64,000 bases of DNA from Kiritimatiellia bacterium (GTDB lineage: Bacteria; Verrucomicrobiota; Kiritimatiellia; JAAZAB01): NCBI GenBank assembly GCA_041653875.1, contig JBAZEM010000006.1:46585-110584 (forward strand), given 5' to 3'. The notes beneath the pieces are model-generated. The model did no database searches, was not told the origin of the DNA, and worked only from the letters and a program-made list of their open reading frames with translations. Positions within the stretch are counted from its first letter, which is position 1, and every line of letters begins with the position of its first letter. Made by a program: the position numbers and the translations under genes. Positions 2,534 through 20,615 of the stretch are shown piece by piece.

Positions 2534-4276
2534 CTACTTCACCGGGATGCCATCCGAAGCGCCAAAGCCGCCCTCGAGAACGCTGTGGCTCCCCATCAGG
2601 AAGATGCTCCAATCACCGTTATGGAACACGGCCAGGTCGGATTTGCCGTCGCCATCATAGTCCCCTGAAAGCGGGATGCCACCCGGAGCGCCAAAGCCGC
2701 CCTCGAGAACGCTGCCACTGCCCACCAGGAAGATGTTCCAATACCCGTTGCGGAACACGGCCAGGTCGGACTTGCTGTCGCCATCATAATCGCCAGACAC
2801 CGGGATGCCATCCGGAGCGCCAAAGCCGCCCTCGAGAGCGCTGTGGCTACCCATCAGGAAGATGCTCCAATCACCGTTATGGAACACGGCCAGGTCGGAC
2901 TTGCCGTCACCGTCATAGTCGCCTGATACCGGGATGCCATTCGGAGCGCCAAAGCCGCCCTCGAGAATGCTGTGGCTACCCATCAGGAAGATGCTCCAAT
3001 CACCGTTATGGAACACGGCCAGATCGGATTTGCCGTCGCCATCATAGTCACCTGATACCGGGATGCCATTCGGAGCGCCAAAGCCGCCCTCGAGAACGCT
3101 GTGGCTACCCATCAGGAAGATGCTCCAATCACCGTTATGGAACACGGCCAGGTCGGACTTGCCGTCACCATCATAGTCGCCTGATACCGGGATGCTATTC
3201 GGAGCGCCAAAGCCGCCCTCGAGAACGCTGTGGCTACCCATCAGGAAGATGTTCCAATACCCGTTGCGGAACACGGCCAGATCGGATTTGCCGTCGCCGT
3301 CGTAATCATTAATGGGCTGTTTTTCCGCCTGGCTGGGGACAACGGTGAATATACCCTCGGACGAACTTACGTAGATCTTGCCGTCACGAATCCGGACCGT
3401 TTCCATCCGCTCGTCCGAACGGGCCAGCACCGCATATCCCGCGTAGTTGCCATTGGTCACAAACAGACGCTGCAACTCGCTCGCATCGGTGAACGACGTC
3501 GCGGTAATTACCAGGCGTCCCTTATTGTCCACCACCATGCCACTCGCGCCATCTCCCGCGGATAGCGTTGCCCACGCATGGCCGACCGGGCTCAGCGGGG
3601 CGCCCGCGGGATTGGCAATGGCAGCGGAAACTTCCGCGGCGCTCCAGCGGTAAACTGTCGGATTGCCCGAAGAGACGTAGCCTTCCGCGTAGAAGAGATT
3701 GCTGGACGCGTCGAAAGCGATTGGACCGCTTGCGGCGCCGATGGCGCCGAGATTCACCAGCGGGTTGCTCACCAAGTCACCATTCGCGTTCAGGGCGCTG
3801 TAATAGATCGCGGAGTTATATCCCCCCGCGGCCCAGAAATCGGTCCCGTCACGCGTCTCGAGCCCATATATGTCGCTCAGAATTCCTATGTTCGCCGGTG
3901 CGGACGGGTGGGTCGGATCATATCGGTAGTAGTCGCAGGTATAACGGGTGTATGTTCCGCCGTCGTTGAAGTAGATGCGGCCGCCGATTGCGGTCACCCG
4001 ACTGCCGGAGAACGCGTTCGCGTCCGTGTACAGGAGCGATGCATTGACGCCGTTGTAACGGTAAACGGAGATCCCTAAACCATAGTCCGGACGTCCGGTC
4101 GAGTAGTACAGGTTCGAATCTTCGTCCCAGTCGAACGCCACCAACGTCTCTCCCGCATGCGGATTCGCGTAGAACGTTTGCGCCACGTAATTGCTGCTTC
4201 CGATGAACGCAGCGAACGCATGTTCGCCAAGCGCCGCCAGGCACACGCCAATAAACAACCTCAACATTAATTTCAT
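2534..4276 (-). CDS. Secreted FG-GAP/VCBS-type repeat protein (about 7 tandem 42-aa repeats, DYDGDGKSDLAVF...)
   Basis: Signal peptide MKLMLRLFIGVCLAALGEHAFA follows an AAGGAG RBS. The C-terminal half consists of near-identical 42-aa FG-GAP-like repeats encoded by 126-bp DNA tandem repeats. Confidence 0.7.
   Translation of the reverse strand: MKLMLRLFIGVCLAALGEHAFAAFIGSSNYVAQTFYANPHAGETLVAFDWDEDSNLYYSTGRPDYGLGISVYRYNGVNASLLYTDANAFSGSRVTAIGGRIYFNDGGTYTRYTCDYYRYDPTHPSAPANIGILSDIYGLETRDGTDFWAAGGYNSAIYYSALNANGDLVSNPLVNLGAIGAASGPIAFDASSNLFYAEGYVSSGNPTVYRWSAAEVSAAIANPAGAPLSPVGHAWATLSAGDGASGMVVDNKGRLVITATSFTDASELQRLFVTNGNYAGYAVLARSDERMETVRIRDGKIYVSSSEGIFTVVPSQAEKQPINDYDGDGKSDLAVFRNGYWNIFLMGSHSVLEGGFGAPNSIPVSGDYDGDGKSDLAVFHNGDWSIFLMGSHSVLEGGFGAPNGIPVSGDYDGDGKSDLAVFHNGDWSIFLMGSHSILEGGFGAPNGIPVSGDYDGDGKSDLAVFHNGDWSIFLMGSHSALEGGFGAPDGIPVSGDYDGDSKSDLAVFRNGYWNIFLVGSGSVLEGGFGAPGGIPLSGDYDGDGKSDLAVFHNGDWSIFLMGSHSVLEGGFGASDGIPVK
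2545..3300. repeat. 126-bp tandem repeat x about 6-7 (coding; FG-GAP repeats)
   Basis: Recurrence of ccatccgaagcgccaaagccgccctcgagaacgctgtggct... every 126 bp with few substitutions. Confidence 0.8.
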
Positions 4277-4482
4277 TTTCATCGCTCCTTTATCGCAGTT
4301 TTTTCCTTGTTCGCGCCTCATTCCAGTCGGGACAAAGGCGTCGTTGTGTTCACTTCTATGGTTTGCATGCTTCCTGTTTATTGGTCTATGTCACAGCGCC
4401 TCCTTTTCGGTCCAGATCGAATGGCGCGAGGTAATATGGCCATCCTATCCCCGCGCGCGTGCCACGAGAAACTTGAGTCCGG

Positions 4483-6812: not shown

Positions 6813-7062
6813 TAAAAAAGCCTCCAGACTCCCGCCAAAAGAGTCTGAAGGCTTTGAATACAGCACGATCCCTCATTCTCCTTTCAAGCGAAGGAGCCAC
6901 AACGAGCATGAAAAGAAACGTCTCCTGACTTCCGGCTTCAAGCCTACTCCTTCACCTTCCCGTTTGCCTTGCGGCACCCGGTGGTCATTGAAGTTTCGTA
7001 GCCGGTCACAGTGGCGCGACCGTATCCGATTCTCACGGATTTCCGTACTCTCTTCACAAACA
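6813..7062 (-). ncRNA. Cobalamin (B12) riboswitch with intrinsic-terminator expression platform
   Basis: The minus strand reads ...GGAAATCCGTGAGAATCGGATACGGTCGCGCCACTGTGACCGGCTACGAAAC...GGGTGCC...AAACGGGAAGGTGAAGG...CAGGAGACG. This matches remembered RF00174 core blocks (GGUGAGAAUCC, GCC-CUGU-A, GGGAAGG). It is followed by the hairpin GCCTTCAGACTC..GAGTCTGGAGGC plus TTTTTT (6813-6853). A paralogous element lies at 19882-20150. Confidence 0.6.
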
Positions 7063-7379
7063 AACTTTTAATTCCAAAGAACTGACAAGACTAATAACAC
7101 AACCATGCAAGCTGTCAATAAGATTTATAAAGCAATTTTTCAAAAGCGTTGTCTATATTGCCGAGCCATGCTTGTTGACGATATTAAAAAAACACCTTGG
7201 CCAGCTTTAGAATACCCTGGCTCCAATACGCGCAGGGCCAGAATTACCGGGGTCGTTCCGGTAAAGACACGATCCGCTTGCCGTGGCCGGCTTCGTCAAG
7301 CACGGCCTGAAAATCCGAGCGCGGTGTTCCGAATTGCTCTGCGCCGACATTGAACGTGTCGTCCTGAATCCCTGGCGGG

Positions 7380-8021
7380 TCAGGGCAATGTTTTTGCCAA
7401 GAAAGCATAAAAACCTTTTTCGTTCGCGTGGCGGATGATAGTTAATCCAGCCTTGGCAAAAAGCGAGCGCATACCAGTTTCATCCGGCATGCGGTCGTGT
7501 TTGACCGCCATGTGAGAATGCGCATGACGATGGTTCAAAGCTTCCGGCGAATCGAAATGCGCCAGCAGCAGCCAGCCGCCCTTTTTCAGGACGGCGGACA
7601 TGGCGCGCATGGCGCGGAGTTTGTCCTGAAAATGAGGGAAACACGAAAAGCAGAATATTCCGTTGCATGATTTGTCCGGAAGAGGCAGCGCGTTTACATC
7701 GGCCACATGGAACCTGATGCGCGGATCGGGATGCAGGCGGCGGTTGACTTCGATCATTTTATCGGCGCAATCGACTTCATGGATTCTGCCCGCCGGCCCC
7801 AATCGCCGGAGAATGCGCGGCACAAGCACGCCGCTTCCACAGCCGATGTCCAGAATAATGTCGTTTTTTTTAAGGGACGCGAGCGCGAACAAGCGTCGGA
7901 ACTTGCGCTCGAAGCGCCGCCGCCGTTTGGCGCCGGGCGTTTTATACCACATATCCATCCATTTTTCGGCATGGGCGTTGAAAAACGCTTTTTGTCTTTT
8001 AATTGCTGTGTGTTGATGCAT
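7380..8021 (-). CDS. Class I SAM-dependent methyltransferase
   Basis: [11 protein letters not shown] motif I plus downstream MTase motifs. It overlaps the 3' end of the znuB-like gene by 23 nt, so it is in the same operon. Confidence 0.6.
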
Positions 8022-8847
8022 GGTTTTCGACCTTCGGCCGGTTGCGCCGCACCCGGGGCGACAGTAAGAATGCCAGCAGATACATGCCGGACGAAATCAG
8101 CACTACACTGCCGCCGGTGGGAATATCCCAGATATAGGATGCCAACAAACCGGCAAAACAAGCGCCGATGCCGAAGATGGCCGCCAGAATCAGAATAACC
8201 GGCAGACGAAACGACAGTTGGCAGGCGGTATTGGCCGGATTGACCAACAAGGCAAAAATCAGCAGGCCGCCAATCATATCCAGGGAGGCGCCGACCGTCA
8301 TGGCGCCCAGCAAGATGATTCCGTAATAGATCGGCGCTTCCGGAATGCCGCAGGCCGCGGCGAGTTCGCGGTTGAAAAGCGCGGCCACGATTTCTTTGTA
8401 AAACAACGATAGAAAAATCGTCAATCCGAGAAATACTCCGGCCAGAATCCAGACTTGCCCTCCCGTCACCGTGAGCAGACTGCCCCACATCAGATTCAAG
8501 GCGTCCGTTTTTGGCCCGGGTATTTTCGCCATCAGGATGAGCGAAATTCCCATGGTGGCCGAAAATATGATGCTCAGCACAACATTGGACGAAGCCTGCG
8601 CTTTTTCCGCCACCGGTCCCACGGCCAAACCTGCCACGGCGCAGGCAATCATGGCCCAGACCAGCGGGGATTGCCCGGCTAACAACCCTATGATCGCTCC
8701 CAGAAACGCCGCATGGGACATGCATATCCCCAGAAAGGGGATTTGCATCAAAGTCAGAAAGACTCCGATAATCGCTATGCTCCCGCCGCCGAAAACACAG
8801 GCGGCCATTGCATGGCGGAAATATTCCTCGTGCAACAATGCCATCAT
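7999..8847 (-). CDS. Metal ABC transporter permease (ABC-3, ZnuB/MntB-like)
   Basis: Multi-TM protein with the ABC-3 signature. ATGA overlap with the upstream ATPase stop. Confidence 0.75.
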   Translation of the reverse strand: MMALLHEEYFRHAMAACVFGGGSIAIIGVFLTLMQIPFLGICMSHAAFLGAIIGLLAGQSPLVWAMIACAVAGLAVGPVAEKAQASSNVVLSIIFSATMGISLILMAKIPGPKTDALNLMWGSLLTVTGGQVWILAGVFLGLTIFLSLFYKEIVAALFNRELAAACGIPEAPIYYGIILLGAMTVGASLDMIGGLLIFALLVNPANTACQLSFRLPVILILAAIFGIGACFAGLLASYIWDIPTGGSVVLISSGMYLLAFLLSPRVRRNRPKVENHASTHSN

Positions 8848-9599
8848 GGCTGTCCGCCTTTCCGCATTGCCTGCCAATCATGCCGGTCACCGTCAAATTG
8901 TTTTTGTCCGCCGGCCAACACGATTGTCCGTTGGCAGTTGGCGGGCACGGCGGACGCATGATGCGTAATCATCAAAACTGCAAAGCGCTCCTGAAGGTGC
9001 AGTCGCTCAAGTAATTGCAGGCAGTCCTGCCGGGCCGTCGTGGAAAGGTGGGAGGAAAACTCGTCCAGCAGAAGGAGATCAGGCTGCTGACACATGGCCC
9101 GGGCAATTTGAACCTTTTGCCTTTCGCCGCCTGAAAGTTGGCCGATGGGGCGAGCCAGCAAATGAAAAATTCCGGCATCGTGTGCGGCCCGATCCACGAG
9201 GGCCCAGTCGTTGGAATTTAACCGGTGTCCCAGCCCGGCGCGCGCGCAACGGCCGATGGCAATTACATCGCGTACGCTGACCGGCATGGTTTCGTCAAAG
9301 GCAAGCGTCTGGGGCACATAGCCGATCCGCCGCCGCAAGGCGCGCCGGTTCCGCCACGAAGCCTGCTGCCCGAACAGACCAATAATCCCCGAGGTTGCGG
9401 GGATCAGGCCAAGGATGGATCGCAGCAGCGTTGTTTTACCCGCGCCGTTATCGCCCAGAACCACCGCAAATTCCCCGCGATTAACAGCCAGCGATACATT
9501 AGACAATATGCGCCGTCCATGGAGATGAACGGTGAGATTGGAAATATTCAGGCAATTATTCATATGCTCAAATTGCAGTTTAAGGCCGGCTGACGACAT
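8844..9599 (-). CDS. Metal ABC transporter ATP-binding protein (ZnuC-like)
   Basis: Walker A GDNGAGKTTLL, LSGGERQ signature, Walker B LLLLDE. Confidence 0.8.
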   Translation of the reverse strand: MSSAGLKLQFEHMNNCLNISNLTVHLHGRRILSNVSLAVNRGEFAVVLGDNGAGKTTLLRSILGLIPATSGIIGLFGQQASWRNRRALRRRIGYVPQTLAFDETMPVSVRDVIAIGRCARAGLGHRLNSNDWALVDRAAHDAGIFHLLARPIGQLSGGERQKVQIARAMCQQPDLLLLDEFSSHLSTTARQDCLQLLERLHLQERFAVLMITHHASAVPANCQRTIVLAGGQKQFDGDRHDWQAMRKGGQP

Positions 9600-9653
9600 T
9601 CTAACATTCTGCAGAATGTTAGAATGTCATAAAAATAAATTGCCGGTCAATTT

Positions 9654-10496
9654 TCATGGTTCAGGATAATTATAGTTGCACACTGTCATAACATTCTTTT
9701 TTAACGTGGTTTCGTAGCTGATCCGGCCGTTCGCATCGGGTTCCGGAAAGTTGCCGAGCACAACCAGCGGCAATCCCAGTTCGCGCGCCAGAGTCTTGCC
9801 GACTTTGCCGCTGCTTTGCCGATTATCCACGACCAGGCGCGCCCGTGCCCGGCGCGCTTGTTGCATAACCTTCTGAAGATTGCGCAACGAGACATCGTCG
9901 TCACGCTGGAATTCCGCTGCCACGCCGAGTCCCACCCAGGCGACCCAGTCGGCGTTCATGGTTGAACATACTGCCGGCAAAGCCCGGATTTTTTTCGAAG
10001 CCGGCTGCAATTCCGCTTCCAGTGCGTCAATCCGTTTCCAATACGCTGTCAAATTTGCGCGGAATAATGCGGCGTGCTTTGGGAACTTGCTTGTCAGGAT
10101 CGTGGCCATCTGTTCTGCTGCCTGTTTTTGGATTGCTGGAATCATCCAATTGCCTGGGATGACGACGGCGCTCAGCGGCGGGCGGGATCGGTCGTTTTCA
10201 AACACCGCCAGGAATTTTTCCGTGCCGTGGCCAAGGATAAGAACCGCCCCGCGTATTTTTTCGATATTACGGGGGCTGAGCTCAAAATGTCCCGGGCACA
10301 TGCCCCAAGGCACGATCGTTTCTGTCTGGTATAAACCGCCGGCCAGAGTTTCAACCAGCCCGCTTAAATGCGTTGTGGTGCATACCACAATGGGTTGTGT
10401 TGCCGGAACCGGTTCCTTGGCCATGGCCGCCGTTAGACAGGCGGCCATGGTAAGCATGGATAGTCCTGTTTTAGATGCGCATGCGTAAGCCGACAT
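9654..10496 (-). CDS. Metal ABC transporter substrate-binding protein (TroA/ZnuA-like)
   Basis: Signal peptide. TroA-like fold motifs (PGHFELSP, VLILGHG). Confidence 0.65.
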   Translation of the reverse strand: MSAYACASKTGLSMLTMAACLTAAMAKEPVPATQPIVVCTTTHLSGLVETLAGGLYQTETIVPWGMCPGHFELSPRNIEKIRGAVLILGHGTEKFLAVFENDRSRPPLSAVVIPGNWMIPAIQKQAAEQMATILTSKFPKHAALFRANLTAYWKRIDALEAELQPASKKIRALPAVCSTMNADWVAWVGLGVAAEFQRDDDVSLRNLQKVMQQARRARARLVVDNRQSSGKVGKTLARELGLPLVVLGNFPEPDANGRISYETTLKKNVMTVCNYNYPEP

Positions 10497-12441
10497 AACC
10501 TGTTATTCCCGGCATTGGATATCCCGGAATCTGTTCGTAATCCTTGTCGAACAGATTGTCAATACCACCGAAGACTTCCGCATATTTAACGACGGGATAA
10601 GCCGCCTTGAGATTTACCACGTAATAATTGGCCACTTTCCCAATGGCGCCGCCTGCCAGAATGTCGCTGTCATACAAATCGGCAACATACTGGACTTCCG
10701 CCGAAAGACGGAATTTTTTTATAGTGTATTCCGCGATGAAGCTCAACTCATTTTCCGGAACGCCCTGGCGGTTGGTATTCGGATTGCCGGTCTTGGCGTC
10801 GTCAATATCCGTATAGGTGTAGGAAGCGTTCAAACGGCACGGTTCGATCGGCCGGTATTCGACCGCCACTTCGACGCCGCGCGTGTCGAAGGCGCCGGAG
10901 TTCTGGTTGATGGTTTGGGGCGGTGGTGCGGGGTTCGGAACCGTTTGAATCATATTATGCGCCTGCTGATAAAACGGAGCGATTTCCACGCTGGCCACCG
11001 AGCATATTTTCTGGATCAAACCAACGTCGTAACCCCATATATCTTCGGGTTCCAACTTCTCGTCGTGGGCAGGGAAAAGATATAACTCGCTGAACCGCGG
11101 CTGGCGGAAACCGCGCGCCGCTTTGGCGCGCAATATGGTGGACGCGGTCACATGGTTTAACAAGCCGACCGTCGGCAGGAATTCGACGCTGTCACCGCAG
11201 TTGTCGTAATGCCCGCGCAAGCCCAGTGTGTTGACCCACTGGCGCCAGGTCAACTCGTTAAAGACATACACGTCGTTATTCTGCTGAATAAAACTGCCAA
11301 AATCCATGTATTTGGCCGGCATGTTCTTTTTGGCCCAAGCCACCCAGTCATCCTGGGGCCTGGCCCACAAATACTGGTATTCGTAGCCGACCGTGGGCGC
11401 GCATTTCGTGTCGTCGTTTTTAAAAACGGTTCGCGAATACTCGGCTTTGCCCCCGAATGTCTGGTCCTTTGAATGCCAATAATCTGAAATCGTCGGCATG
11501 TTGAACTTGTGGTCCCCGAAAGTGTTATAAGCTATGAACGAAAGCCGCGAATCGTCCCATTGGCCGGTCAGATCGACATTCCACGAGCCGCGCTTGTATA
11601 GCCGGCAATCGTTGTTGGTGTAGAGATTGTTAATTGGCCCCGGATCATGGCCAAGGTCGGCGAAATACTGGCCGGCAGCTTCCAACCGCCAGACATCGGT
11701 TAAATCCTCTCCGAGCCGTAGTGACCCGAAGTCACCGCTGTATTCGCCGTTGGGGCGGTAACCGTCGGTTTGTTTGTGGTCATACGCGGCGTAATAATCG
11801 AAACCTTGGATTTTCCCGCCGTGGCGCGCTAATCCATGCAGAGTGCCGTAACTGCCGTATTGCAGTGAGCCGTCGGTCTCAAAGCCTGGGTCCAGCCTGC
11901 GGCGCGTAATGATGTTAATCACGCCTCCCATGGCGTCCGAGCCGTAAAGCACCGATTCCGGGCCGCGCAACACTTCGATTCTATCCACATTGGCCAAGGG
12001 CAAGGTCTGCGAGACCGTGCAGCCGAAAAGCAACATTTTTTCGGGGCGTCCGTCAATCAGGGTCTGGATTCTGCGCATGTTCGATCCCAGCCCGCGAATA
12101 CTGACATCCTGCCGGCCGTAGATGGCGTCCTTGCGGATATAAACGCTCGGTTCCGCGACGATGGCGTCCATAACGTAGTCGGTGGTCAAAGCTTCGATTT
12201 GATCCCGATCAATCACGCTCACCGCCGAGGTCACGTTTTTCACCTTATTGGTCAGGCGCGAGCCCAGGACTATGATTTCGTCCACCCGCAAGTATGCGGG
12301 AGGTTCTTGCGCTATGCCTGCCGACGAAGCCTCGTTGGTTGCCGCCGGTGAAATGGCGTTGCTCGACACCTGTGCTCCGGCAACGCCGCCGAAGAGCATC
12401 GTGCCCGCGCAGATCAGTGCCCACTGGTTTCTTCTTTGCAT
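10471..12441 (-). CDS. TonB-dependent outer-membrane receptor
   Basis: Signal peptide, TonB box DEIIVLGSR, plug and barrel motifs. Start taken at MQRRNQWALICAG. Confidence 0.75.
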   Translation of the reverse strand: MQRRNQWALICAGTMLFGGVAGAQVSSNAISPAATNEASSAGIAQEPPAYLRVDEIIVLGSRLTNKVKNVTSAVSVIDRDQIEALTTDYVMDAIVAEPSVYIRKDAIYGRQDVSIRGLGSNMRRIQTLIDGRPEKMLLFGCTVSQTLPLANVDRIEVLRGPESVLYGSDAMGGVINIITRRRLDPGFETDGSLQYGSYGTLHGLARHGGKIQGFDYYAAYDHKQTDGYRPNGEYSGDFGSLRLGEDLTDVWRLEAAGQYFADLGHDPGPINNLYTNNDCRLYKRGSWNVDLTGQWDDSRLSFIAYNTFGDHKFNMPTISDYWHSKDQTFGGKAEYSRTVFKNDDTKCAPTVGYEYQYLWARPQDDWVAWAKKNMPAKYMDFGSFIQQNNDVYVFNELTWRQWVNTLGLRGHYDNCGDSVEFLPTVGLLNHVTASTILRAKAARGFRQPRFSELYLFPAHDEKLEPEDIWGYDVGLIQKICSVASVEIAPFYQQAHNMIQTVPNPAPPPQTINQNSGAFDTRGVEVAVEYRPIEPCRLNASYTYTDIDDAKTGNPNTNRQGVPENELSFIAEYTIKKFRLSAEVQYVADLYDSDILAGGAIGKVANYYVVNLKAAYPVVKYAEVFGGIDNLFDKDYEQIPGYPMPGITGYVGLRMRI

Positions 12442-12519
12442 TTTCCGAATTCCTTTCCTGTTGTGTTGTTGAGGCGGCAACCATTGTTTGGCAATATGGC
12501 ATCCGGCCGTCTTGGTCGA

Positions 12520-12552
12520 CGCTATAATACGATATATAAATTAGTATTACCG
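12520..12552. promoter_or_regulatory. Candidate metalloregulator operator: inverted repeat TAATAC-N13-GTATTA in an AT-rich promoter region
   Basis: Lies between the mini-nikR stop and the TBDR start and is the only AT-rich stretch there. Half-sites resemble the NikR/Fur-family GTAT-type dyad. Confidence 0.3.
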
Positions 12553-12587
12553 ATAGACTAAAAAAATACAGCCAACAGAATGGCGTA

Positions 12588-12842
12588 TTATTTCGATGCC
12601 TGGCCGGTAGCGGTGGCAGTCAGGCCGCCGTGCTTGACGCCCCGCAGGGCGATCAGACGATCAGCCAGCGATATGACCCCCACCACGGCGCCTTGCTCGC
12701 TACGCCATTGTTCGTCCACCAGGTTCTTGCGAATCGGGTCGCGCGCGGCTTCCGATCGGTTCTGGCAGCCATGCCGGGTGAGAAACAAGTCGAAGGCGGC
12801 CAGCAGGTCTGACTCCAAGGCGGCGGGAAAACTGGCGATCAC
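12588..12842 (-). CDS. NikR-like ribbon-helix-helix regulator, truncated (84 aa; lacks central metal-binding segment)
   Basis: The N-terminus aligns to the E. coli NikR RHH domain (..DLLAAFDLFLTRHGCQNRSEAARDPIR..). The C-terminus aligns to the NikR end (ADRLIALRGVKHGGL vs ADDVIAQRGVRHGHL). About 50 aa are missing, including the His/Cys nickel ligands. Confidence 0.55.
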   Translation of the reverse strand: MIASFPAALESDLLAAFDLFLTRHGCQNRSEAARDPIRKNLVDEQWRSEQGAVVGVISLADRLIALRGVKHGGLTATATGQASK

Positions 12843-12996
12843 GGTAATACTATTTCTCCTTTCGTGTTAATCTACGATCGAAATACCACCATGTCAAGCA
12901 AGAATATTTTAAAAGCGTATATGCTGTCGATATTTTCATAGACCGAAAGATTTATTCAGATGTCGATCCGCTGTCAAGGCACGGCGCCGAGGTCCA

Positions 12997-13761
12997 TCAG
13001 TTTTTTAGCTGGAAGCGGAAGATAATCAGAGATTCGGATGTTACCGGCTTGCCGTTTCTCCGGCCGGGGCTAAAACGCGCGCGTCTTATGGCTTTGAGAG
13101 CGGCTTGGTCCAGTTCGCGATGGCCGCTGGACTGAACTATATCTGTCCCATCAACCCGTCCATCCGCGCCAACCTGCGCGCGCACCGTAACATTGCCTTG
13201 CTCGCCGCGACGCCGCGCGCCCAACGGATAGACGGGGCGAACACCCGCCGACATCCGGGGCAACCCCTGAATGCCTTTGCTTAATCCATCGGCGTCGGAT
13301 TGCGGCGCGGCGTCATCTCCCGATTGGGTGGAAGACATGCCCGAAGAAGCATTATCCGCCAATTTGGCCTGCGTGAGTTCAGATGGAGTTTCGGCGGTCT
13401 CCTCCGGCTGTTCCGGCGCCGGCCGGGATTCCGAGAGTGCGGCGGATGGATGGGGAAGATCAACCTGAGCCGGCGCTTCTTTTTCCGCCTCAGGCGCCGT
13501 ATAAATCGGCGCTTCAACGGGGGGCGCCGCTTGCGCCTGCATTGCGGCAATCCCGGCGGGAGGCGGAGCGAGGAATGTCATTGCCAGGCTGGATGCGCCC
13601 TGTTGAAAGATTGGTTGCGCCCGGATAGAGCGGCCGCCCCACAGGCCCGCCATGGATAGCAACAGGCCGACATGAAACAACAGCGCGAGCAACAGGCCCG
13701 CGATATAATCGCGCGGATTCGATCCGCATGCGGAACCGTTACACGAATCCCGACGGTTCAT
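12997..13761 (-). CDS. tonB: TonB energy transducer
   Basis: N-terminal TM anchor, Pro/Ala/Glu-rich spacer, C-terminal TonB domain (VRPVYPLGARRRGEQGNVTVRAQVGADGRV...). Start set at MNRRDS (13761). Confidence 0.65.
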   Translation of the reverse strand: MNRRDSCNGSACGSNPRDYIAGLLLALLFHVGLLLSMAGLWGGRSIRAQPIFQQGASSLAMTFLAPPPAGIAAMQAQAAPPVEAPIYTAPEAEKEAPAQVDLPHPSAALSESRPAPEQPEETAETPSELTQAKLADNASSGMSSTQSGDDAAPQSDADGLSKGIQGLPRMSAGVRPVYPLGARRRGEQGNVTVRAQVGADGRVDGTDIVQSSGHRELDQAALKAIRRARFSPGRRNGKPVTSESLIIFRFQLKN

Positions 13762-13826
13762 ATTTAAGGGTGTAGCGGCGGTTCGCAAGAACCGCGCCGG
13801 CTTAAAAAAATTACTGCGCGCTAAAT

Positions 13827-14228
13827 TCACGGTTTTTTCACCTCGAAGGCCACCGCGGCGATGCCGGCCTCCTTCAGCCGCGACAACAGCTCGATGCCGA
13901 CGCCCAGGTCGGCGCCGCGGTCGCCGCCGATCAGCACGGCGCAGGAACCGCTGCGGGCGGCCGCGGCGGTTCTTGCAACGCAAGTTTCCAAGTCGCAGAT
14001 TTCCCGATCCAGGCTGATGGTATTGTCGGCGGCAAGCGTAATACGGATACTGCGTTTTTGACTGCCGGCGTCGGCCACGCCCGCCGGCAAGGCCACTTTC
14101 AGGCCTTTGGAGAGGGTCATGGAAATGGCCGCGTAGATGAAAAACACCAGGATGACGAAGGCAATATCGATCAGATTGACCAACTCAATGCGCGCCTTCT
14201 TGTTTTCGTAGCCGGTGGGTATCCGCAT
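13827..14228 (-). CDS. exbD: ExbD/TolR biopolymer transport protein
   Basis: KKARIELVNLIDIAFVILVFFI motif typical of ExbD. Confidence 0.7.
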   Translation of the reverse strand: MRIPTGYENKKARIELVNLIDIAFVILVFFIYAAISMTLSKGLKVALPAGVADAGSQKRSIRITLAADNTISLDREICDLETCVARTAAAARSGSCAVLIGGDRGADLGVGIELLSRLKEAGIAAVAFEVKKP

Positions 14229-14862
14229 ATTCCAGTCCTTTCTTGTAAGCCACTTCGAACTGGGCGACAAACTGCTCCAATCGCCGCGCTTCGCGCTGGA
14301 TTTTGCTGACCAGCGCGTTATAGGGCACCAGGGTCACCATGGCGATAATAAGTCCGGCGGCCGTGGCTATCAGCGCTTCCGCCAGACCGGCGATTACCGC
14401 GCCCGGATCCTGAATCTCCACGGCGCCCAGAATGCGGAAGGAGCGGATAATCCCCAGCACCGTGCCGAGAATGCCCAGGAGCGGCGCCAGGGTGATGACG
14501 GTATCCAAGGCCGTCAGGCCGTGTTTCATGCGGGCGATTTCATCGCCGGCGGCCACCTCAAGACTGCCTTCCAGGCCGTAGGCATGGTGCTTTAACCCCG
14601 CCGCCAGGATGCGCGTCGCGGCGAAGGGATGGAGGCGCGCTATTCGGATGGCTTGATCGAATTCGCCGCATTCGGTTTCTTGCATAAGCTGGTCCAGCCA
14701 TTCCGCGCGTTGCGCGCTCATGCGCTGGCGCCACCAGAATAGCAGGCGCTCGATCGTGATCGTCGCCGAGAGCAACGAACAGATCATGAGCGGCCACATC
14801 ACCGGGCCGCCCTTGAGAATGACCGACCAGACCGCGCCAGAACCTTCAATGTGCATCATCAT
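14185..14862 (-). CDS. exbB: ExbB/MotA/TolQ proton channel
   Basis: Three TM helices. MotA_ExbB-type sequence. Confidence 0.7.
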   Translation of the reverse strand: MMMHIEGSGAVWSVILKGGPVMWPLMICSLLSATITIERLLFWWRQRMSAQRAEWLDQLMQETECGEFDQAIRIARLHPFAATRILAAGLKHHAYGLEGSLEVAAGDEIARMKHGLTALDTVITLAPLLGILGTVLGIIRSFRILGAVEIQDPGAVIAGLAEALIATAAGLIIAMVTLVPYNALVSKIQREARRLEQFVAQFEVAYKKGLEYADTHRLRKQEGAH

Positions 14863-14865
14863 TTT

Positions 14866-15245
14866 TTAGTCCTTGATACGTAGGAATTTCCCGCCATAGG
14901 CGGATCCGCCTCCGGCAGACAAAACATAGCGGTTCTAACGAACCGCAACTACACCAAAGCGGTGTAGTTGCCGTTCGATAGAACGGCAAAGTCGCGGCCT
15001 TTGGCCGCCTAACTCGATGTTAAGGAAATTCAATCTGATGTAGAGCCGGTTTTATACCGGCTATCCTATGCCGAAGATAGCCGACGTAAAGTCGGCTCTA
15101 CATGAAAAAGCCGCCCCGCTGCGGGGCCTAACTTGATGTATAGGAAATCCAAACCCGCCGGGTCAGGGGACCCGGCCTACAATACTGTAGGCCCGGTGCC
15201 CTCACCGGGCGTTATGAAAAAGCTGCCCCGCTGCGGGGCCTAACT
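14866..15245. repeat. BIME-like mosaic repeat array (hairpin modules separated by conserved linker CTAACTYGATGTAnAGGAAATYCAA)
   Basis: Three linker copies at about 15012, 15135 and 15238. Hairpin modules such as GTAGAGCCGG..CCGGCTCTAC and GCCCCGCTGCGGGGC recur at 32292-32470, 48335-48545 (inverted), 62745-63360 and partly at 30205-30310. Confidence 0.75.
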
Positions 15246-16047
15246 TGTTGTTTCTGCGGTTGGCTTCCTGCGCCGCCTCGGAAATAGCCATGACATAAGG
15301 TTTGCGGGAAACAGGGTTTTTCTCGACCACCACAACCGTTTTGTAAACCTCCTCAATAATCCTGTAATCAAGCACCTCCTCCGGGGCGCCGAATTTGTAA
15401 ATGGCGCCCTTGTCGAACAGCGCCAGGCGATGGCAGTATTCGCCGGCCAGGTTCAAATCGTGCAGCACCATAATCACCGTAAGAGCGAAGTTGATGTTCA
15501 ACCTTCTGATGAGATCGAGGATGCCCATCTGGTGGGTGATGTCGAGATAGGTGGTCGGTTCGTCCAGGAGCAACAACTTCGGTTCCTGGGCCAGCGCGCG
15601 CGCAATCAGGGCTAACTGGCGTTCTCCGCCGCTGATCCGGCTCATGAGCTGGTCCTTGATCCTGAGCGCATCGGTTAACACCATGGCGTTGCAGGCGATC
15701 TGCGCGTCGTTCTTCGTTTCGAGGAAGCGGAAGCGGTCGTAATAGGGTGTCCGGCCCAGGAGCACAAATTCCTCCACGGTCATAAAACCGGATTCGGCGC
15801 TTTGCGAAACAACCGCGATTTTGCGCGCCAGTTCCCGGATTTTCATTCTGCGGATATCTTCGCCCTCCAGACGAATGACGCCGCCCGCCGGTTTCAGCGA
15901 CCGCGTGATGGCCCTCAGCAGGGTTGTTTTCCCGGAGCCGTTCGGGCCGATGATGCCGACGATTTCGCCGGCCGGAACGCGCAGATTGATATTACGGATG
16001 GCGAATCCGGAGTCATAGCCGCAGGTCAGATCGCTTATATCGAGCAT
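15202..16047 (-). CDS. btuD: Iron-siderophore/cobalamin ABC transporter ATP-binding protein (BtuD/FepC-like)
   Basis: Walker A GPNGSGKTTLL, LSGGERQ, LLLLDEPT. Start set at MLDISDL. The C-terminal tail runs into the repeat array. Confidence 0.7.
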   Translation of the reverse strand: MLDISDLTCGYDSGFAIRNINLRVPAGEIVGIIGPNGSGKTTLLRAITRSLKPAGGVIRLEGEDIRRMKIRELARKIAVVSQSAESGFMTVEEFVLLGRTPYYDRFRFLETKNDAQIACNAMVLTDALRIKDQLMSRISGGERQLALIARALAQEPKLLLLDEPTTYLDITHQMGILDLIRRLNINFALTVIMVLHDLNLAGEYCHRLALFDKGAIYKFGAPEEVLDYRIIEEVYKTVVVVEKNPVSRKPYVMAISEAAQEANRRNNKLGPAAGQLFHNAR

Positions 16048-17057
16048 CGGATTTGGCCCTCCCGCCGCCGGCACAATACATAGACAAAAATTATCCCGCC
16101 CAGCAATCCCGTGACGACGCCGACGGGCAATTCCGTCGGGCTGACAACCGTTCGCGCCAATGTGTCGCAGGCGACCAGGAAAACGCCCCCGCAAAGCCAG
16201 GCGGCGGGCAGCAAAATACGGTGGTCGCCGCCCACGAAAAGGCGCATGAAATGCGGAACCACCAGGCCCACGAAGCCGATGATCCCGGCCACAGAAACGC
16301 TCAATCCGGTCATAATTGACGCCAGGATAAAGAGCAGGCGTTTGGCGGTTTCGATGTTGACGCCGAGATGGAAGGCCTCCTCCTCGCCGAGCGCGAGGGC
16401 GTTAAGCTCCAGGCAAAAGAAATAAGAAACCCCCAGGGCGACAACGGAAACAATCACGGCGATTCTTACCAGCAGAGGGTTGGGCTGTTCCAGGGAGCCC
16501 ATGGCCCAAAAGATGATGCCGTGCAAATCCTCCACCTTCGAAATCGCCATGATAAGCGTCATCAACGAAGAGCAGATGAAGCTGATCATTATGCCGATCA
16601 ACAGCAGATTTCGGATGTTAAGGCCGCCTTTGCCGATGCTTAAAAAATACACCGCGAAAATGGCGGCGGCCGCGCCAATCGAGCCGGCCACCGGCAAAGA
16701 CCAGACGCCGCAACTCCGGCCCAGCCTGAAGATGATAGCCAGGCATACGCCCAGCGCCGCGCCGCCGGAAATTCCCATGGTATAAGGCTCAACCAGCGGA
16801 TTGCGGAATAATCCCTGCAAAATGACTCCGGCCAGGCTCAACGCGCCGCCGACCGCAATGCCAAGTAAAATGCGCGGAAGACGAACATCATAGATGATGG
16901 TCCGTTCCATAGTGTCGCCGCTGCGCATTAGCGCCGACAAAAGTCTGGCCGGCGAAATATCGGCCGAACCCAGGCACAGGGAAATGATCCCCACGCCCGC
17001 CAGCAAGCCGCCCAGAATCAGAAGCGCGGCCATCCAATGTGTAAATCTGTTTTTCAA
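16035..17057 (-). CDS. btuC: FecCD-family ABC permease (BtuC-like)
   Basis: About 9 TM helices. FecCD family signature region. Confidence 0.75.
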   Translation of the reverse strand: MKNRFTHWMAALLILGGLLAGVGIISLCLGSADISPARLLSALMRSGDTMERTIIYDVRLPRILLGIAVGGALSLAGVILQGLFRNPLVEPYTMGISGGAALGVCLAIIFRLGRSCGVWSLPVAGSIGAAAAIFAVYFLSIGKGGLNIRNLLLIGIMISFICSSLMTLIMAISKVEDLHGIIFWAMGSLEQPNPLLVRIAVIVSVVALGVSYFFCLELNALALGEEEAFHLGVNIETAKRLLFILASIMTGLSVSVAGIIGFVGLVVPHFMRLFVGGDHRILLPAAWLCGGVFLVACDTLARTVVSPTELPVGVVTGLLGGIIFVYVLCRRREGQIRCSI

Positions 17058-19018: not shown

Positions 19019-19881
19019 TCTTTGTTTGCTCCTTGTATGATTTCCGGATGGATTCGCTTTAGAAGTTCAGGCAGACCGTATAAAATCAGCCGTGGCGAGG
19101 GGATGGTGATGACTTGGGGGCCTATGTCGTCATAGACGCGGCCGGTTTTGATGGCGGAGATTTTCTCCCATCCTTTTCTTTGCTTTAAGGCCTCTTTGCC
19201 GAAATTTCTGCCCATGTAGGGCAGAATGATCACTTCGGGGTCGCTGTTGATGACAAATTCCGACGATATGCGCGGGAAGGGCTGGGCGATGGCGCCGGCA
19301 ATGTTTTGCCCGCCGGCGGCTTCGATCATTTCGTGGATAAACGACCCCTTGCCGCAAGTGAACAACGGGTCATAGCCGGTTTCCATGTAGACTCGCGGGC
19401 GCGAAGGCAGCGCTGCCGTCAAGCGCCTGGTTGTTGCGACGGTCGCGCGCATGCGTTTGAGCAACGCTGCCGTCCGCGCGGGTTCTTTGAGGATATCCCC
19501 GATCTGCCTGGTTTTGGCAAAAATTTCCGCGATGCCCTGCGTCTCATCCAGAACCACGACGCGCAGACCCAAGGCGGATAATTTTTCGGCGGCGGATTGT
19601 TGCCCCGCAAAACCGGTGGCCAGGATAAGATCGGGCTTGAGCGCGACGATTCTTTCAATGTTGGGTTTGACCCATAAACCGATCCGTTCCGCGCGCCGGA
19701 CTTCTTCCAGGTAATCGGAAGATGTCGTCACGCCGACGATCCGGTCCTGCAATCCCAGTTCGATCAGAATTTCATCGTAGCTGGGAGCAAGGCTCACAAT
19801 TCGTTTGGGCGCGGCGTCTTCGGCAAGGATGCGCGTGCCAATAAAGATCGAAAGACATCCGGCAACGATAAGCTTGGTCAT
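19015..19881 (-). CDS. btuF: Periplasmic binding protein of cobalamin/siderophore ABC transporter (BtuF-like)
   Basis: Signal peptide. PBP type-2 motifs (IVSLAPSYDEILIELG, VKPNIERIVALKPDLIL). The start ATG 19881 directly follows the riboswitch terminator T-tract. Confidence 0.7.
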   Translation of the reverse strand: MTKLIVAGCLSIFIGTRILAEDAAPKRIVSLAPSYDEILIELGLQDRIVGVTTSSDYLEEVRRAERIGLWVKPNIERIVALKPDLILATGFAGQQSAAEKLSALGLRVVVLDETQGIAEIFAKTRQIGDILKEPARTAALLKRMRATVATTRRLTAALPSRPRVYMETGYDPLFTCGKGSFIHEMIEAAGGQNIAGAIAQPFPRISSEFVINSDPEVIILPYMGRNFGKEALKQRKGWEKISAIKTGRVYDDIGPQVITIPSPRLILYGLPELLKRIHPEIIQGANKE

Positions 19882-20150
19882 AAAAAAACCTCCGATACGC
19901 TCGTAGGCGGATATCGAAGGTTTGCGATTGCGGAACCTCATCCTCTCCACCTGCGAGAGAGCGAATCCGGCCTGGCCGGATTCCGATGAGCGTGCAAAGC
20001 AACGTCTTCTGACTTCCGGGTGCTATCCTACTTTCCCCGCCTTCTCCCAACCTGTGCTGGGATGGCTTATGGGATTTCGTCCCCGGTTACAGCGGCGCAA
20101 CCGCGTCCGATTTTCACGGACTTCCGTACGCCTTCCACGCTTGTAAAAAC
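19882..20150 (-). ncRNA. Cobalamin (B12) riboswitch controlling btuF-TBDR-btuCD
   Basis: The minus strand reads GTGAAAATCGGACGCGGTTGCGCCGCTGTAACCGGGGACGAAATCCC...GCCATCCCAGCACAGGTTGGGAGAAGGCGGGG...CAGAAGACG. This is homologous to the element at 6813-7062. It ends in a hairpin plus TTTTTTT abutting the btuF ATG. The context is the classic B12-importer regulon. Confidence 0.7.
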
Positions 20151-20204: not shown

Positions 20205-20615
20205 TTATTTGTCGCGGGATTTTATTTGTCTGCCAATTGCGGCAAACTGGTCGCAGGTGTCGGTGGCTTCCACTTCCCGGTTGGATCGGCCGCAGCGTTG
20301 CAGGAAAGGATTGACCACATAATGGGCGCAATGCCGGCAAAGCCGTCCGACGGTTTCGAGCACCTCGCGCTCGCCGAATACCCTGGGCGGCGGCGGCACG
20401 TCCTGGCGCCCGAAGCCCGGCGCGATTTTTTTCGTTTTGAACGGCACTGTGTCTCCGTCGGGAAAAATATGGCCACAGGCGGCGCAGGACAGTTTCTCGC
20501 CTGTGCGTTTGAATCCCTCGTACACAATCTCGCGCTTGAGCAGCGCGTCCTGGCCGCAGGCCGGACAGAGAATTTCAATCGGCCGAACTGGTGTTTTGCG
20601 ATCCGCTTTTTCCAT
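20205..20615 (-). CDS. Zinc-ribbon domain hypothetical protein
   Basis: Two CxxC...CxxC clusters (CPACG..CAACG ; CRHCAH). The strand choice over the antisense ORF 20226..20675 is tentative. Confidence 0.3.
   Translation of the reverse strand: MEKADRKTPVRPIEILCPACGQDALLKREIVYEGFKRTGEKLSCAACGHIFPDGDTVPFKTKKIAPGFGRQDVPPPPRVFGEREVLETVGRLCRHCAHYVVNPFLQRCGRSNREVEATDTCDQFAAIGRQIKSRDK

What the first reader, a model, noticed from the sequence alone, without database searches (positions are those of the whole stretch)
7380..12842. Mini-NikR (84 aa, metal-binding core deleted) heading a TBDR / ZnuABC-like / methyltransferase operon with a TAATAC-N13-GTATTA dyad
The regulator keeps the NikR ribbon-helix-helix DNA-binding domain and the extreme C-terminus. 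About 50 residues are missing, including the His/Cys nickel ligands. It may be a metal-blind repressor, a degraded gene, or a new minimal RHH regulator class. The operon mixes an outer-membrane receptor, a TroA/ZnuA-type ABC importer and a SAM methyltransferase overlapping the permease gene. That combination is unusual for metal uptake. TonB-ExbB-ExbD lie immediately adjacent.
Basis: partly seen in the sequence, partly recalled or inferred. Interest (0 to 1): 0.65.

Follow-up and report, generated by a model that had tools for sequence, protein, structure and literature searches.

The report
Decayed NikR heading nickel-uptake operon
The 84-residue "mini-NikR" is a broken copy of an ordinary nickel-sensing repressor, found in one Kiritimatiellia strain only, and it sits in front of a conserved but uncharacterised nickel-uptake gene cassette that keeps its normal NikR binding sites.

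Summary
An 84-aa NikR-derived ORF (12588-12842, minus strand) lacks 53 internal residues, including all four nickel ligands. A perfect TAATAC-N13-GTATTA dyad (12525-12549) follows it, then genes for a TonB-dependent receptor (TBDR), a ZnuA-like binding protein, an ABC ATPase, an ABC-3 permease and a SAM methyltransferase. TonB-ExbD-ExbB lie next door.

The "new minimal regulator class" reading is not supported. Every relative is a 133-139 aa full-length NikR. The short form occurs only in near-identical contigs of one Kiritimatiellia strain. It arose by an in-frame 159-bp deletion between CTGGC microhomologies. Since then it has gained residues never seen in 95 NikRs (P6, A7, A33, P36), lost the conserved Arg4, changed ATG to GTG, and evolved at omega about 0.46 against about 0.12 in the clade. 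It is most likely a decaying, nickel-blind remnant.

The dyad is the clade's conserved NikR box, the known "reversed" delta-proteobacterial type. A second box overlaps the nikR ribosome-binding site.

The five-gene cassette recurs behind full-length NikRs or NikR boxes in other Kiritimatiellia. Its ABC-plus-methyltransferase core also occurs in a Deltaproteobacteria MAG. Its binding protein has a remodelled Cys/His/Asn site. This cassette is the more interesting part.

The parts
12869..12897 (-). nikR promoter-like site, TTGACA-17 nt-TAGATT
   Evidence: Consensus scan scored 10 of 12 matches. The same TTGACA...TAGATT arrangement is conserved upstream of nikR in relatives.
12845..12869 (.). NikR box A. 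Read on the minus strand it is TAACAC-N13-GTATTA. It starts at the last base of the -10 hexamer and spans the Shine-Dalgarno sequence, ending 2 nt upstream of the GTG start. It is the presumed autoregulatory operator.
   Evidence: One mismatch to the dyad. Homologous boxes (TTAATAC-N13-GTGTTAC) sit at the same position in at least 12 related loci.
12588..12842 (-). Mini-nikR: an 84-codon ORF with a GTG start. It is a NikR RHH domain fused to the last 26 residues of the C-terminal domain, and probably a decaying remnant.
12664..12668 (-). Deletion junction: a single CTGGC left from two CTGGC direct repeats that flank the lost 159 bp in the full-length allele L058.
   Evidence: blastn of the window against L058 shows both flanks of the L058 segment ending or starting in CTGGC.
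12525..12549 (.). NikR box B, a perfect TAATAC-N13-GTATTA (GGTAATAC...GTATTAT on the minus strand). Its centre is about 96 nt upstream of the TBDR ATG. It is the operator of the uptake operon.
   Evidence: It is conserved in front of transporter operons in L004-L012, L017, L058, L059, L014 and L061/62.
10471..12441 (-). TonB-dependent outer-membrane receptor (656 aa, Plug plus beta-barrel domains).
   Evidence: Pfam PF07715 and PF00593. Orthologs are 86-95% identical in L014, L072 and L073.
9654..10448 (-). Periplasmic ZnuA/TroA-fold (cluster A-I) substrate-binding protein with a non-canonical ligand set.
   Evidence: Pfam PF01297, E = 4e-23. Invariant C51-P-G-H54, N100, C161/M164 and N233 replace the PsaA-type H/H/E/D ligands.
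8844..9599 (-). ABC transporter ATPase.
   Evidence: Pfam PF00005.
7999..8847 (-). ABC-3 family (ZnuB/AztB-like) permease.
   Evidence: Pfam PF00950, E = 6e-45. NCBIfam AztB-like match below cut-off.
7380..8021 (-). Class I SAM-dependent methyltransferase (213 aa), overlapping the permease gene by 23 nt. It is the conserved last gene of the cassette; its substrate is unknown.
   Evidence: Pfam Methyltransf_25/11/23. Homologs of 46-80% identity occupy the same position in L059, L060, L062, L063, L064 and L065.
12997..14862 (-). ExbB (14185-14862), ExbD (13827-14228) and TonB (12997-13761). They are adjacent and are the likely energiser of the TBDR, but no NikR box precedes them.
   Evidence: Pfam, gene calls, and no box at up to 2 mismatches.

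Best explanation
The 84-aa ORF is a lineage-specific, decaying allele of a canonical 137-aa nickel-responsive repressor, NikR. An in-frame 159-bp deletion between two CTGGC direct repeats removed residues about 59-111. That segment holds most of the C-terminal metal-binding and tetramerisation domain and all four Ni ligands. The remaining RHH domain has since accumulated damaging substitutions. The protein therefore can no longer sense nickel, almost certainly cannot form the obligate NikR tetramer that bridges two half-sites, and probably binds DNA poorly or not at all (inferred). The two dyads are the clade's conserved NikR operators. Box A overlaps the nikR ribosome-binding site, which implies autorepression. 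Box B precedes the transporter operon. The operon is an intact NikR-regulon cassette predicted to import nickel or a nickel chelate. The TBDR would carry it across the outer membrane, energised by the adjacent ExbB-ExbD-TonB. A divergent cluster A-I binding protein and an ABC-3 permease with its ATPase would carry it across the inner membrane. The translationally coupled cytoplasmic SAM methyltransferase has an unknown substrate. With the local repressor crippled, the cassette is either constitutively derepressed or controlled in trans by a second, intact NikR paralog elsewhere in the genome (inferred). Shown here: the deletion, its uniqueness, the relaxed constraint, and the conservation of the operators and the cassette. 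Inferred: loss of function, the substrate, and the present mode of regulation.
For: (1) Uniqueness. Searches of 5.8 billion proteins, 1.84 billion representatives, GTDB genomes and JGI metagenomes find the 84-aa form only in cluster P0001/P0166. The contigs carrying it differ at 3 positions across about 12 kb of the locus. All clade relatives are full-length at 133-137 aa, apart from two frameshifted copies, L083 and L088. (2) Mechanism of loss. L058 is about 85% identical at the nucleotide level, including the promoter and both boxes. It carries the extra 159 bp flanked by CTGGC repeats. (3) Lost ligands. H77, H88, H90 and C96 correspond to EcNikR H76, H87, H89 and C95 and lie inside the gap. 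NikR is an obligate tetramer with His3Cys sites (PMC11672702). (4) Decay of the remaining sequence. There are 8 private changes at columns invariant in 10 close full-length relatives, against 0-2 for each of those relatives. P6, A7, A33 and P36 occur in 0 of 95 diverse NikRs, and S4 replaces an Arg present in 92 of 95. The start codon is GTG where every relative examined has ATG. (5) Relaxed selection. The window branch carries 13 nonsynonymous and 10 synonymous changes (omega about 0.46). The L058 branch carries 2 and 7 (about 0.10), and the clade median is 0.12. The probability of the window-branch split under omega = 0.12 is 0.0014, and it is not clearly different from neutral (P = 0.053). 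(6) Family scores fall below threshold. NCBIfam NikR gives 65.8 bits against a cut-off of 105, while relative P0003 scores 174.7. NCBI annotates the protein as 'hypothetical protein'. (7) Operators. Box A and box B are conserved in position and sequence across relatives. They match the reversed NikR signal GTAACAC-N13/14-GTGTTAC of Rodionov et al. 2004 (PMC545781). (8) Cassette. NikR(137/138 aa)-TBDR-ZnuA-ABC-ABC3-MTase is found in L059 and L064. The cassette with a NikR box but no adjacent nikR is found in L061/62 and L014+L060 (in the latter MAG a full-length nikR lies about 5 kb upstream), and without an adjacent nikR in L065, where no box scan was run. Full-length NikR directly upstream of the orthologous TBDR is found in L072 and L073. 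(9) Two NikR copies occur in related MAGs: VSJD01 (L008 and L010) and JBDRSI01 (L012 and L016).
Against: The ORF is still open. It keeps a good promoter, a Shine-Dalgarno sequence and its operator. The deletion is in frame, and omega about 0.46 is below 1, so some residual constraint or function cannot be excluded. With only about 23 substitutions on the branch, the absence of stops or frameshifts is only weak evidence either way. R4S is shared with the full-length allele L058, so part of the divergence predates the deletion. No second NikR of this genome was seen, because only 64 kb of it is available. The nickel substrate is inferred from the operator and neighbourhood alone. The AlphaFold model was low-confidence and uninformative.
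Confidence: 0.77

Rival explanations
1. The mini-NikR is a functional, metal-blind minimal RHH regulator. As a dimer it still recognises the TAATAC/GTATTA half-sites and represses nikR and the uptake operon constitutively or weakly, independent of nickel.
For: The ORF is intact and in frame, with a conserved promoter, Shine-Dalgarno sequence and both operators. RHH homology is retained. Branch omega of 0.46 is below 1. Small RHH proteins of this size, such as CopG, Arc and MetJ, are known repressors (own knowledge).
Against: The conserved Arg4 is replaced by Ser; it aligns with the beta-strand Arg that contacts bases in E. coli NikR (own knowledge). Pro appears in the beta-strand (P6) and in the middle of helix 2 (P36). 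These residues occur in 0-1 of 95 NikRs. The tetramerisation domain that lets NikR bridge two half-sites about 2 helical turns apart is gone. The form is present in a single shallow lineage only. A constitutive repressor of a nickel importer would be counter-productive while the importer genes are maintained intact.
Confidence: 0.12
2. The mini-NikR acts as a dominant-negative or anti-repressor. Its RHH half pairs with the RHH of a full-length NikR paralog and poisons the tetramer, keeping nickel uptake on.
For: RHH domains are obligate intertwined dimers (own knowledge). Related MAGs carry two NikR copies whose loci use the same box. The mini gene keeps its NikR-controlled promoter.
Against: There is no direct evidence, and no paralog from this genome is in hand. 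The core substitutions L36P and V33A would also weaken heterodimerisation. The form has no evolutionary persistence beyond one strain.
Confidence: 0.05
3. The short gene is an assembly or sequencing artefact, and the organism really has a full-length nikR here.
For: Metagenome assemblies can collapse sequence between short repeats. The junction lies at a 5-bp repeat.
Against: An identical 84-aa gene appears in contigs from two JGI samples assembled independently, with a third contig on record. It also appears under three NCBI protein accessions and in Logan and ENA assemblies. A 5-bp repeat is far too short to mislead an assembler. The many additional point substitutions are independent of the deletion.
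Confidence: 0.02

Closest known systems
Canonical NikR (E. coli 1Q5V/2HZV, P. horikoshii 2BJ1, H. pylori 2CA9)
   Same: The N-terminal RHH domain and the last beta-strand region are homologous (E = 2e-11 to 2BJ1). The gene lies next to a nickel-uptake operon with a two-half-site palindromic operator. Close relatives are bona fide NikRs (P0003 against 2BJ1, E = 2e-36).
   Different: It lacks 53 residues of the metal-binding and tetramerisation domain, including the His3Cys site. It scores below family cut-offs. It has lost the conserved beta-strand Arg and carries prolines in the strand and in helix 2.
Delta-proteobacterial NikR box (Rodionov et al. 2004, PMC545781): GTGTTAC-N13/14-GTAACAC, and the reversed form GTAACAC-N13/14-GTGTTAC in Desulfotalea
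   Same: The half-site family (GTAAYAC / GTRTTAC), the 13-nt spacer, and the location upstream of nickel transporter operons and of nikR are all shared.
   Different: The orientation is the 'reversed' one, with T preferred at the variable position (GTAATAC...GTATTAC). The host phylum is Kiritimatiellota.
Helicobacter NikR regulon with TonB-dependent nickel uptake (FrpB4/FecA3 plus ExbB-ExbD-TonB; H. mustelae NikH plus CeuE/FecDE)
   Same: A NikR-controlled TonB-dependent outer-membrane receptor is combined with an ABC importer and a TonB system for nickel acquisition (cited in PMC11247825).
   Different: The inner-membrane system here is ABC-3/ZnuABC-type rather than FecDE or NikABCDE type. 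A dedicated SAM methyltransferase is part of the cassette. No NikR box precedes exbB here. The local NikR is defective.
Cluster A-I metal-binding proteins (PsaA, ZnuA, TroA, MntC, YfeA)
   Same: The fold family is shared (PF01297; profile hits to YcdH, PsaA, AdcA and ZnuA at E = 1e-18 to 1e-12). The partner ABC-3 permease and ATPase are also shared.
   Different: The canonical ligands are not conserved. The PsaA H67 region reads C-P-G-H, H139 is replaced by an invariant Asn, E205 by a variable residue flanked by near-invariant Cys and Met, and D280 by an invariant Asn.
Sporadic internally deleted NikR-like ORFs in metagenomes (P0027, P0030, P0034, P0091, P0148, P0165 and others)
   Same: They are short (83-110 aa) proteins in which a NikR RHH domain is joined to C-terminal NikR sequence.
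   Different: Each has different deletion boundaries and is a singleton or two-member cluster. The one examined (P0030) sits in an unrelated, non-transporter context. Together they do not form a family.

Membership tests
NikR (nickel-responsive RHH metalloregulator) | N-terminal ribbon-helix-helix DNA-binding domain homologous to NikR | tested here: met
   phmmer residues 4-59 against 2BJ1 5-60, whole-sequence E = 2e-11. NCBIfam NF003381 E = 4e-18. However, 4 residues are never seen in 95 NikRs.
NikR (nickel-responsive RHH metalloregulator) | Complete C-terminal ACT-like metal-binding and tetramerisation domain (Pfam NikR_C, PF08753) | tested here: not met
   Only profile positions 50-76 of 77 are matched, at 17 bits against a cut-off of 22. 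A 53-residue gap appears in the alignment.
NikR (nickel-responsive RHH metalloregulator) | High-affinity square-planar His3Cys Ni(II) site (EcNikR H76', H87, H89, C95) | tested here: not met
   All four positions (H77, H88, H90, C96 in clade numbering) lie in the deleted segment. They are conserved in 68-73 of 95 homologs.
NikR (nickel-responsive RHH metalloregulator) | Conserved Arg in the RHH beta-strand (clade R4, aligned with E. coli NikR R3) | tested here: not met
   Ser at position 4, where Arg occurs in 92 of 95 NikRs. The base-contacting role of this Arg is from my own recollection of the 2HZV structure.
NikR (nickel-responsive RHH metalloregulator) | Score above the curated family threshold | tested here: not met
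   NF003381 gives 65.8 bits against 105, and TIGR02793 gives 37.8 against 175. Relative P0003 scores 174.7 bits on NF003381.
NikR (nickel-responsive RHH metalloregulator) | Two-half-site palindromic operator at regulated promoters | tested here: met
   Box B at 12525-12549 and box A at 12845-12869. They are conserved in relatives and match the published signal.
NikR (nickel-responsive RHH metalloregulator) | Nickel-dependent tetramer binding to DNA | not testable with these tools
   This needs EMSA or SEC-MALS. The AlphaFold monomer model was uninformative, with mean pLDDT 55.
Proposed 'minimal RHH regulator class' (mini-NikR) | The same short architecture is conserved in several diverged lineages under purifying selection | tested here: not met
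   It occurs in only one strain. Other short forms are singletons or two-member clusters with different boundaries. Branch omega is elevated.
ZnuABC/TroABC-type (cluster A-I, ABC-3) metal importer | PF01297 binding protein, PF00950 permease and ABC ATPase in one operon | tested here: met
   E = 4e-23, 6e-45 and 4e-32 respectively.
ZnuABC/TroABC-type (cluster A-I, ABC-3) metal importer | Canonical His/His/His(Glu)/Asp metal ligands in the binding protein | tested here: not met
   The profile alignment to PsaA and YcdH shows CPGH, Asn, a variable residue and Asn at the four ligand positions. All NCBIfam Zn/Mn equivalogs score far below cut-off.
TonB-dependent receptor | Plug domain plus 22-strand barrel domain | tested here: met
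   PF07715 at 5.9e-23 and PF00593 at 3.4e-31. No specific NCBIfam equivalog is reached.
Class I SAM-dependent methyltransferase | Rossmann-fold methyltransferase domain with the GxGxG SAM motif | tested here: met
   Methyltransf_25/11/23 at E about 1e-19. LD.GCG.G is invariant. The best named family, DVU_1556, scores only 61.5 bits against a cut-off of 155, so no specific family is assigned.

The most novel reading that the evidence does not exclude
The domain-deleted NikR is retained because it is useful. It would be a natural metal-blind RHH module that binds NikR half-sites weakly, or heterodimerises with a full-length paralog to blunt nickel repression, so that the TonB-dependent nickel cassette stays on in a nickel-poor habitat. 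A separate point: the NikR-box-controlled TBDR/Cys-type ZnuA-like ABC/methyltransferase cassette would be a previously undescribed nickel or nickel-chelate uptake system in which the imported ligand or metal complex is methylated.
Probability: 0.1. Interest if true: 0.55.

Novelty: new variant of a known kind. Interest (0 to 1): 0.3.

Why it matters
The headline idea of a new class of minimal metalloregulators does not hold. What is here is a snapshot of a metal sensor being lost by microhomology-mediated deletion while its operators and target operon remain intact. This matters mainly as an annotation caution: "CopG family nickel-responsive regulator" here is a remnant. It is also a small natural experiment in regulator loss.

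The more useful product is the comparative result. Kiritimatiellia share a well-defined NikR box. They also share a conserved NikR-regulon cassette made of a TBDR, a ZnuA-like ABC importer with a remodelled Cys/His/Asn site, and a dedicated SAM methyltransferase. The cassette's ABC-plus-methyltransferase core is also present in a Deltaproteobacteria MAG. I could not find this cassette described. It is a concrete candidate for a new route of nickel or nickel-chelate acquisition in anaerobes rich in Ni enzymes.

Tried and rejected
(1) AlphaFold2 of the mini-NikR with alignment A1 gave mean pLDDT 55 and a C-terminal tail below 50. This was too poor to interpret or to use in a fold search.

(2) Rfam found no RNA element in the nikR-TBDR region, only two cobalamin riboswitches elsewhere in the window.

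(3) The sigma-70 consensus scan found the nikR promoter but no convincing promoter around box B.

(4) My first 'small156' ORF upstream (20222-20692) was the wrong frame. The real gene is the Cys-rich 136-aa ORF at 20205-20615. Synteny was re-checked with the right frame.

(5) I first took L072/L073 (TBDR 94.7% identical) for the closest sister. A sliding identity profile shows that the TBDR gene is a recombinant tract of 94-98% identity in an approximately 82% background. TBDR dS is therefore not a valid clock for nikR.

(6) A Fisher test of the window branch against the L058 branch alone is not significant (P = 0.12), so the binomial test against the clade-wide omega was used instead.

(7) A literature search for DVU1556 found nothing, and Rodionov et al. 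2006 (PMC1317602) is not held.

(8) The methyltransferase profile against the PDB gave only generic class I methyltransferases, with no clue to the substrate.

(9) The JGI metagenome scan did not return the window's own contig, so it could not test for a full-length allele in the same samples.

(10) I looked for a NikR box in front of exbB or the B12 transporter. There is none at up to 2 mismatches.

Full report
**What is there**

All genes described here lie on the minus strand, in this order:
- a Cys-rich 136-aa gene (20615-20205)
- a cobalamin riboswitch (20149-19982) followed by genes for a BtuF-like protein, a TonB-dependent receptor (TBDR), a FecCD permease and an ABC ATPase (19950-15202)
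- ExbB, ExbD and TonB (14862-12997)
- a sigma-70-like promoter, TTGACA-17-TAGATT (12897-12869)
- an 84-codon NikR-like ORF with a GTG start (12842-12588)
- a perfect TAATAC-N13-GTATTA dyad (12525-12549)
- the TBDR (12441-10471), a ZnuA-like binding protein (10448-9654), an ABC ATPase (9599-8844), an ABC-3 permease (8847-7999) and a class I SAM methyltransferase (8021-7380, overlapping the permease gene by 23 nt)
- a second cobalamin riboswitch (7083-6898)

**The regulator is NikR with an internal hole**

- phmmer against the PDB aligns residues 4-59 to P. horikoshii NikR 5-60, and residues 55-81 to NikR 109-135.
- Pfam sees only the last 27 positions of NikR_C, below threshold.
- NCBIfam's NikR equivalog gives 65.8 bits against a cut-off of 105. 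A close full-length relative scores 174.7.
- Aligned with its relatives, the protein lacks exactly 53 residues.
- The alignment of relative P0003 with E. coli NikR shows that the missing block contains H77, H88, H90 and C96. These are the counterparts of the His3Cys nickel ligands H76, H87, H89 and C95.
- NikR proteins are obligate tetramers held together by this C-terminal domain (PMC11672702).

**The short form is unique to one strain**

- The word-indexed search of 5.8 billion proteins found one short cluster (P0001) and sixteen relatives of 133-137 aa.
- The exhaustive HMMER scan of 1.84 billion representatives gave the same picture.
- P0001/P0166 comes from the window's own contig, from a second JGI sample, and from three NCBI MAG proteins annotated as 'hypothetical protein [Kiritimatiellia bacterium]'.
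- The second JGI contig differs from the window at only 3 positions between 14,891 and 2,838. There is therefore no evolutionary depth behind the short form.
- In GTDB genomes and JGI metagenomes, every close relative whose gene is complete on its contig and unframeshifted is full length.
- Other short NikR-like proteins exist in the big library (P0027, P0030, P0034, P0091, P0148, P0165 and others). Each has different deletion boundaries and each is a singleton or a two-member cluster.
- The one whose context I fetched (P0030) sits in an unrelated neighbourhood. These are sporadic decay products, not a family.

**How it arose and what happened afterwards**

- The closest full-length allele is L058, about 85% identical at the nucleotide level through the promoter, the gene and both operators. 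It carries an extra 159 bp bounded by CTGGC on both sides.
- The window retains one CTGGC at 12668-12664. This is the signature of a microhomology-mediated, in-frame deletion.
- The surviving 84 codons have also degenerated. Eight substitutions fall at columns that are invariant in ten close full-length relatives, each of which has 0-2 private changes.
- Against 95 diverse full-length NikRs, P6, A7, A33 and P36 are never seen. C26 is seen twice. S4 replaces an Arg present in 92 of 95.
- That Arg aligns with the beta-strand Arg that contacts bases in E. coli NikR (my recollection of the 2HZV structure). P36 sits in the middle of RHH helix 2.
- The start codon is GTG where every relative examined has ATG.
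- Parsimony counts on the window branch give 13 nonsynonymous and 10 synonymous changes (omega about 0.46). The L058 branch gives 2 and 7 (about 0.10), and the clade median is 0.12.
- The window-branch split is very unlikely under omega = 0.12 (P = 0.0014) and only marginally different from neutrality (P = 0.053).
- R4S is shared with L058, so loosening of this copy may have begun before the deletion.

**The dyad is the clade's NikR operator**

- In the window, the dyad pattern with up to 1 mismatch occurs twice against 0.03 expected. Both copies flank nikR.
- In related loci the same two boxes recur.
  - Box A (TTAATAC-N13-GTGTTAC) runs from the -10 hexamer across the Shine-Dalgarno sequence of nikR.
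  - Box B (GGTAATAC-N13-GTATTAYGG) lies in front of the downstream transporter operon. That operon may be NikMNQO-type (L004, L010, L011, L017) or TBDR-type (L008, L009, L014, L059, L061/62).
- Between the window and L058, the half-sites are conserved while the spacers and flanks vary.
- The motif is the 'reversed' version of the delta-proteobacterial NikR signal GTGTTAC-N13/14-GTAACAC described by Rodionov et al. 2004 (PMC545781).
- No box precedes exbB or the B12 transporter.

**The operon is a conserved cassette**

| Locus | Arrangement |
|---|---|
| L059 | NikR (137 aa)-TBDR-ZnuA-ABC-ABC3-MTase; methyltransferase 73% identical |
| L064 | NikR (138 aa)-TBDR-ZnuA-ABC-ABC3-MTase; methyltransferase 50% identical |
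| L061/62 | Cassette with a NikR box, no adjacent nikR |
| L065 | Cassette, no adjacent nikR; no box scan run |
| L014 + L060 | Cassette with a NikR box, split over two contigs of one MAG; full-length nikR about 5 kb upstream |
| L063 | Deltaproteobacteria MAG: ZnuA-ABC-ABC3-MTase core near a TBDR, a tetrapyrrole methylase and DUF4198 |
| L072, L073 | Full-length NikR directly upstream of a TBDR 94.7% identical to the window's |

- For L072/L073, an identity profile shows that the TBDR gene is a recombinant tract of 94-98% identity in an approximately 82% background. These are related lineages rather than the nearest sister.
- The cassette genes in the window are intact.
- The binding protein belongs to the ZnuA/PsaA fold family but does not keep the canonical ligands. 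The family instead has invariant C51-P-G-H54, N100 and N233, and near-invariant C161 and M164.
- The methyltransferase family (about 213 aa) has the SAM motif plus invariant C124, H130, H155 and H166. It has no specific named family and no informative structural relative.
- I found no description of this cassette in the searchable literature.
- Known nickel TBDR systems are FrpB4/FecA3, NikH with CeuE/FecDE, and CntO. They use other inner-membrane transporters and have no methyltransferase.

**Most likely function**

- Ancestrally, Ni-NikR tetramers bound box A and box B. This repressed nikR and the uptake cassette when nickel was sufficient.
- The cassette would bring nickel, or more likely a nickel chelate given the TBDR and the remodelled binding site, across both membranes. 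It would use the neighbouring ExbB-ExbD-TonB for energy.
- The coupled methyltransferase would act on an unknown cytoplasmic substrate.
- In this strain the local NikR has lost its sensor and tetramerisation domain and has a damaged RHH domain. I therefore rate it a non-functional remnant (0.77).
- The cassette is then either constitutively on or governed in trans by another NikR. Two related MAGs have two nikR copies whose loci use the same box. No second copy of this genome is in hand.
- Rival readings and their ratings:
  - a metal-blind RHH dimer repressor (0.12)
  - a dominant-negative partner of a paralog (0.05)
  - an assembly artefact (0.02, contradicted by independent assemblies)

**Verdict**

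The finding is an ordinary gene-decay event set in a moderately interesting, apparently undescribed variant of a NikR-controlled TonB-dependent nickel uptake locus.

Noticed in passing
window 19982-20149 (-) and 6898-7083 (-): There are two cobalamin riboswitches (Rfam RF00174, 69 and 67 bits). The first precedes a BtuF-like/TBDR/FecCD/ABC corrinoid uptake operon. The second precedes an 808-aa He_PIG/LIC_13355-like protein (6909-4483), which is followed by an FG-GAP repeat protein (4321-2534). These are unusual cargo for a B12 riboswitch and could be surface corrinoid-binding proteins.
   Followed up: partly
window 20205-20615 (-): This is a Cys-rich 136-aa zinc-ribbon-like protein (CPAC...CAAC...CRHC) with no family assignment. 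Copies 74-90% identical sit directly upstream of nikR in 16 related loci, which suggests a functional link to the NikR locus.
   Followed up: partly
window 12997-20149: In relatives, the Cys-rich gene and nikR are about 100 nt apart. In this strain a 7.2-kb block is inserted between them. The block holds the B12 riboswitch, the corrinoid transporter and ExbB-ExbD-TonB.
   Followed up: partly
window 14880-15245, 32317-32469, 48352-48524, 63064-63336: A dispersed intergenic repeat of about 150-270 nt (81-85% identity between copies) contains an internal inverted repeat. About ten of the differences between the window and the second strain (L002) cluster in the copy upstream of exbB. It may be a MITE/REP-like element.
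   Followed up: partly
window 2541-3308 (within ORF 2534-4321, -): The FG-GAP repeat gene contains tandem repeats of about 129 nt (about 90% identical). It carries most of the SNPs between the two otherwise near-identical strains.
   Followed up: no
window 10580-12380 compared with L072: The TBDR gene is 94-98% identical at the nucleotide level to a lineage whose flanking nikR and binding-protein genes are only about 80-85% identical. This implies a recent recombinational exchange of the receptor gene between Kiritimatiellia lineages.
   Followed up: partly
window 9654-10448 (-) and homologs P0245-P0275: This ZnuA-fold binding-protein subfamily has its canonical metal ligands replaced by invariant C-P-G-H, Asn and Asn plus near-invariant Cys and Met. 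It is always found with the methyltransferase-containing cassette.
   Followed up: partly
L083 1290-1436; L088 1329-1740: Two further nikR copies of the same clade are frameshifted. They may be real pseudogenes or read errors. Many unrelated singleton internal-deletion NikR ORFs also exist in public metagenomes (P0027, P0030, P0034 and others).
   Followed up: partly
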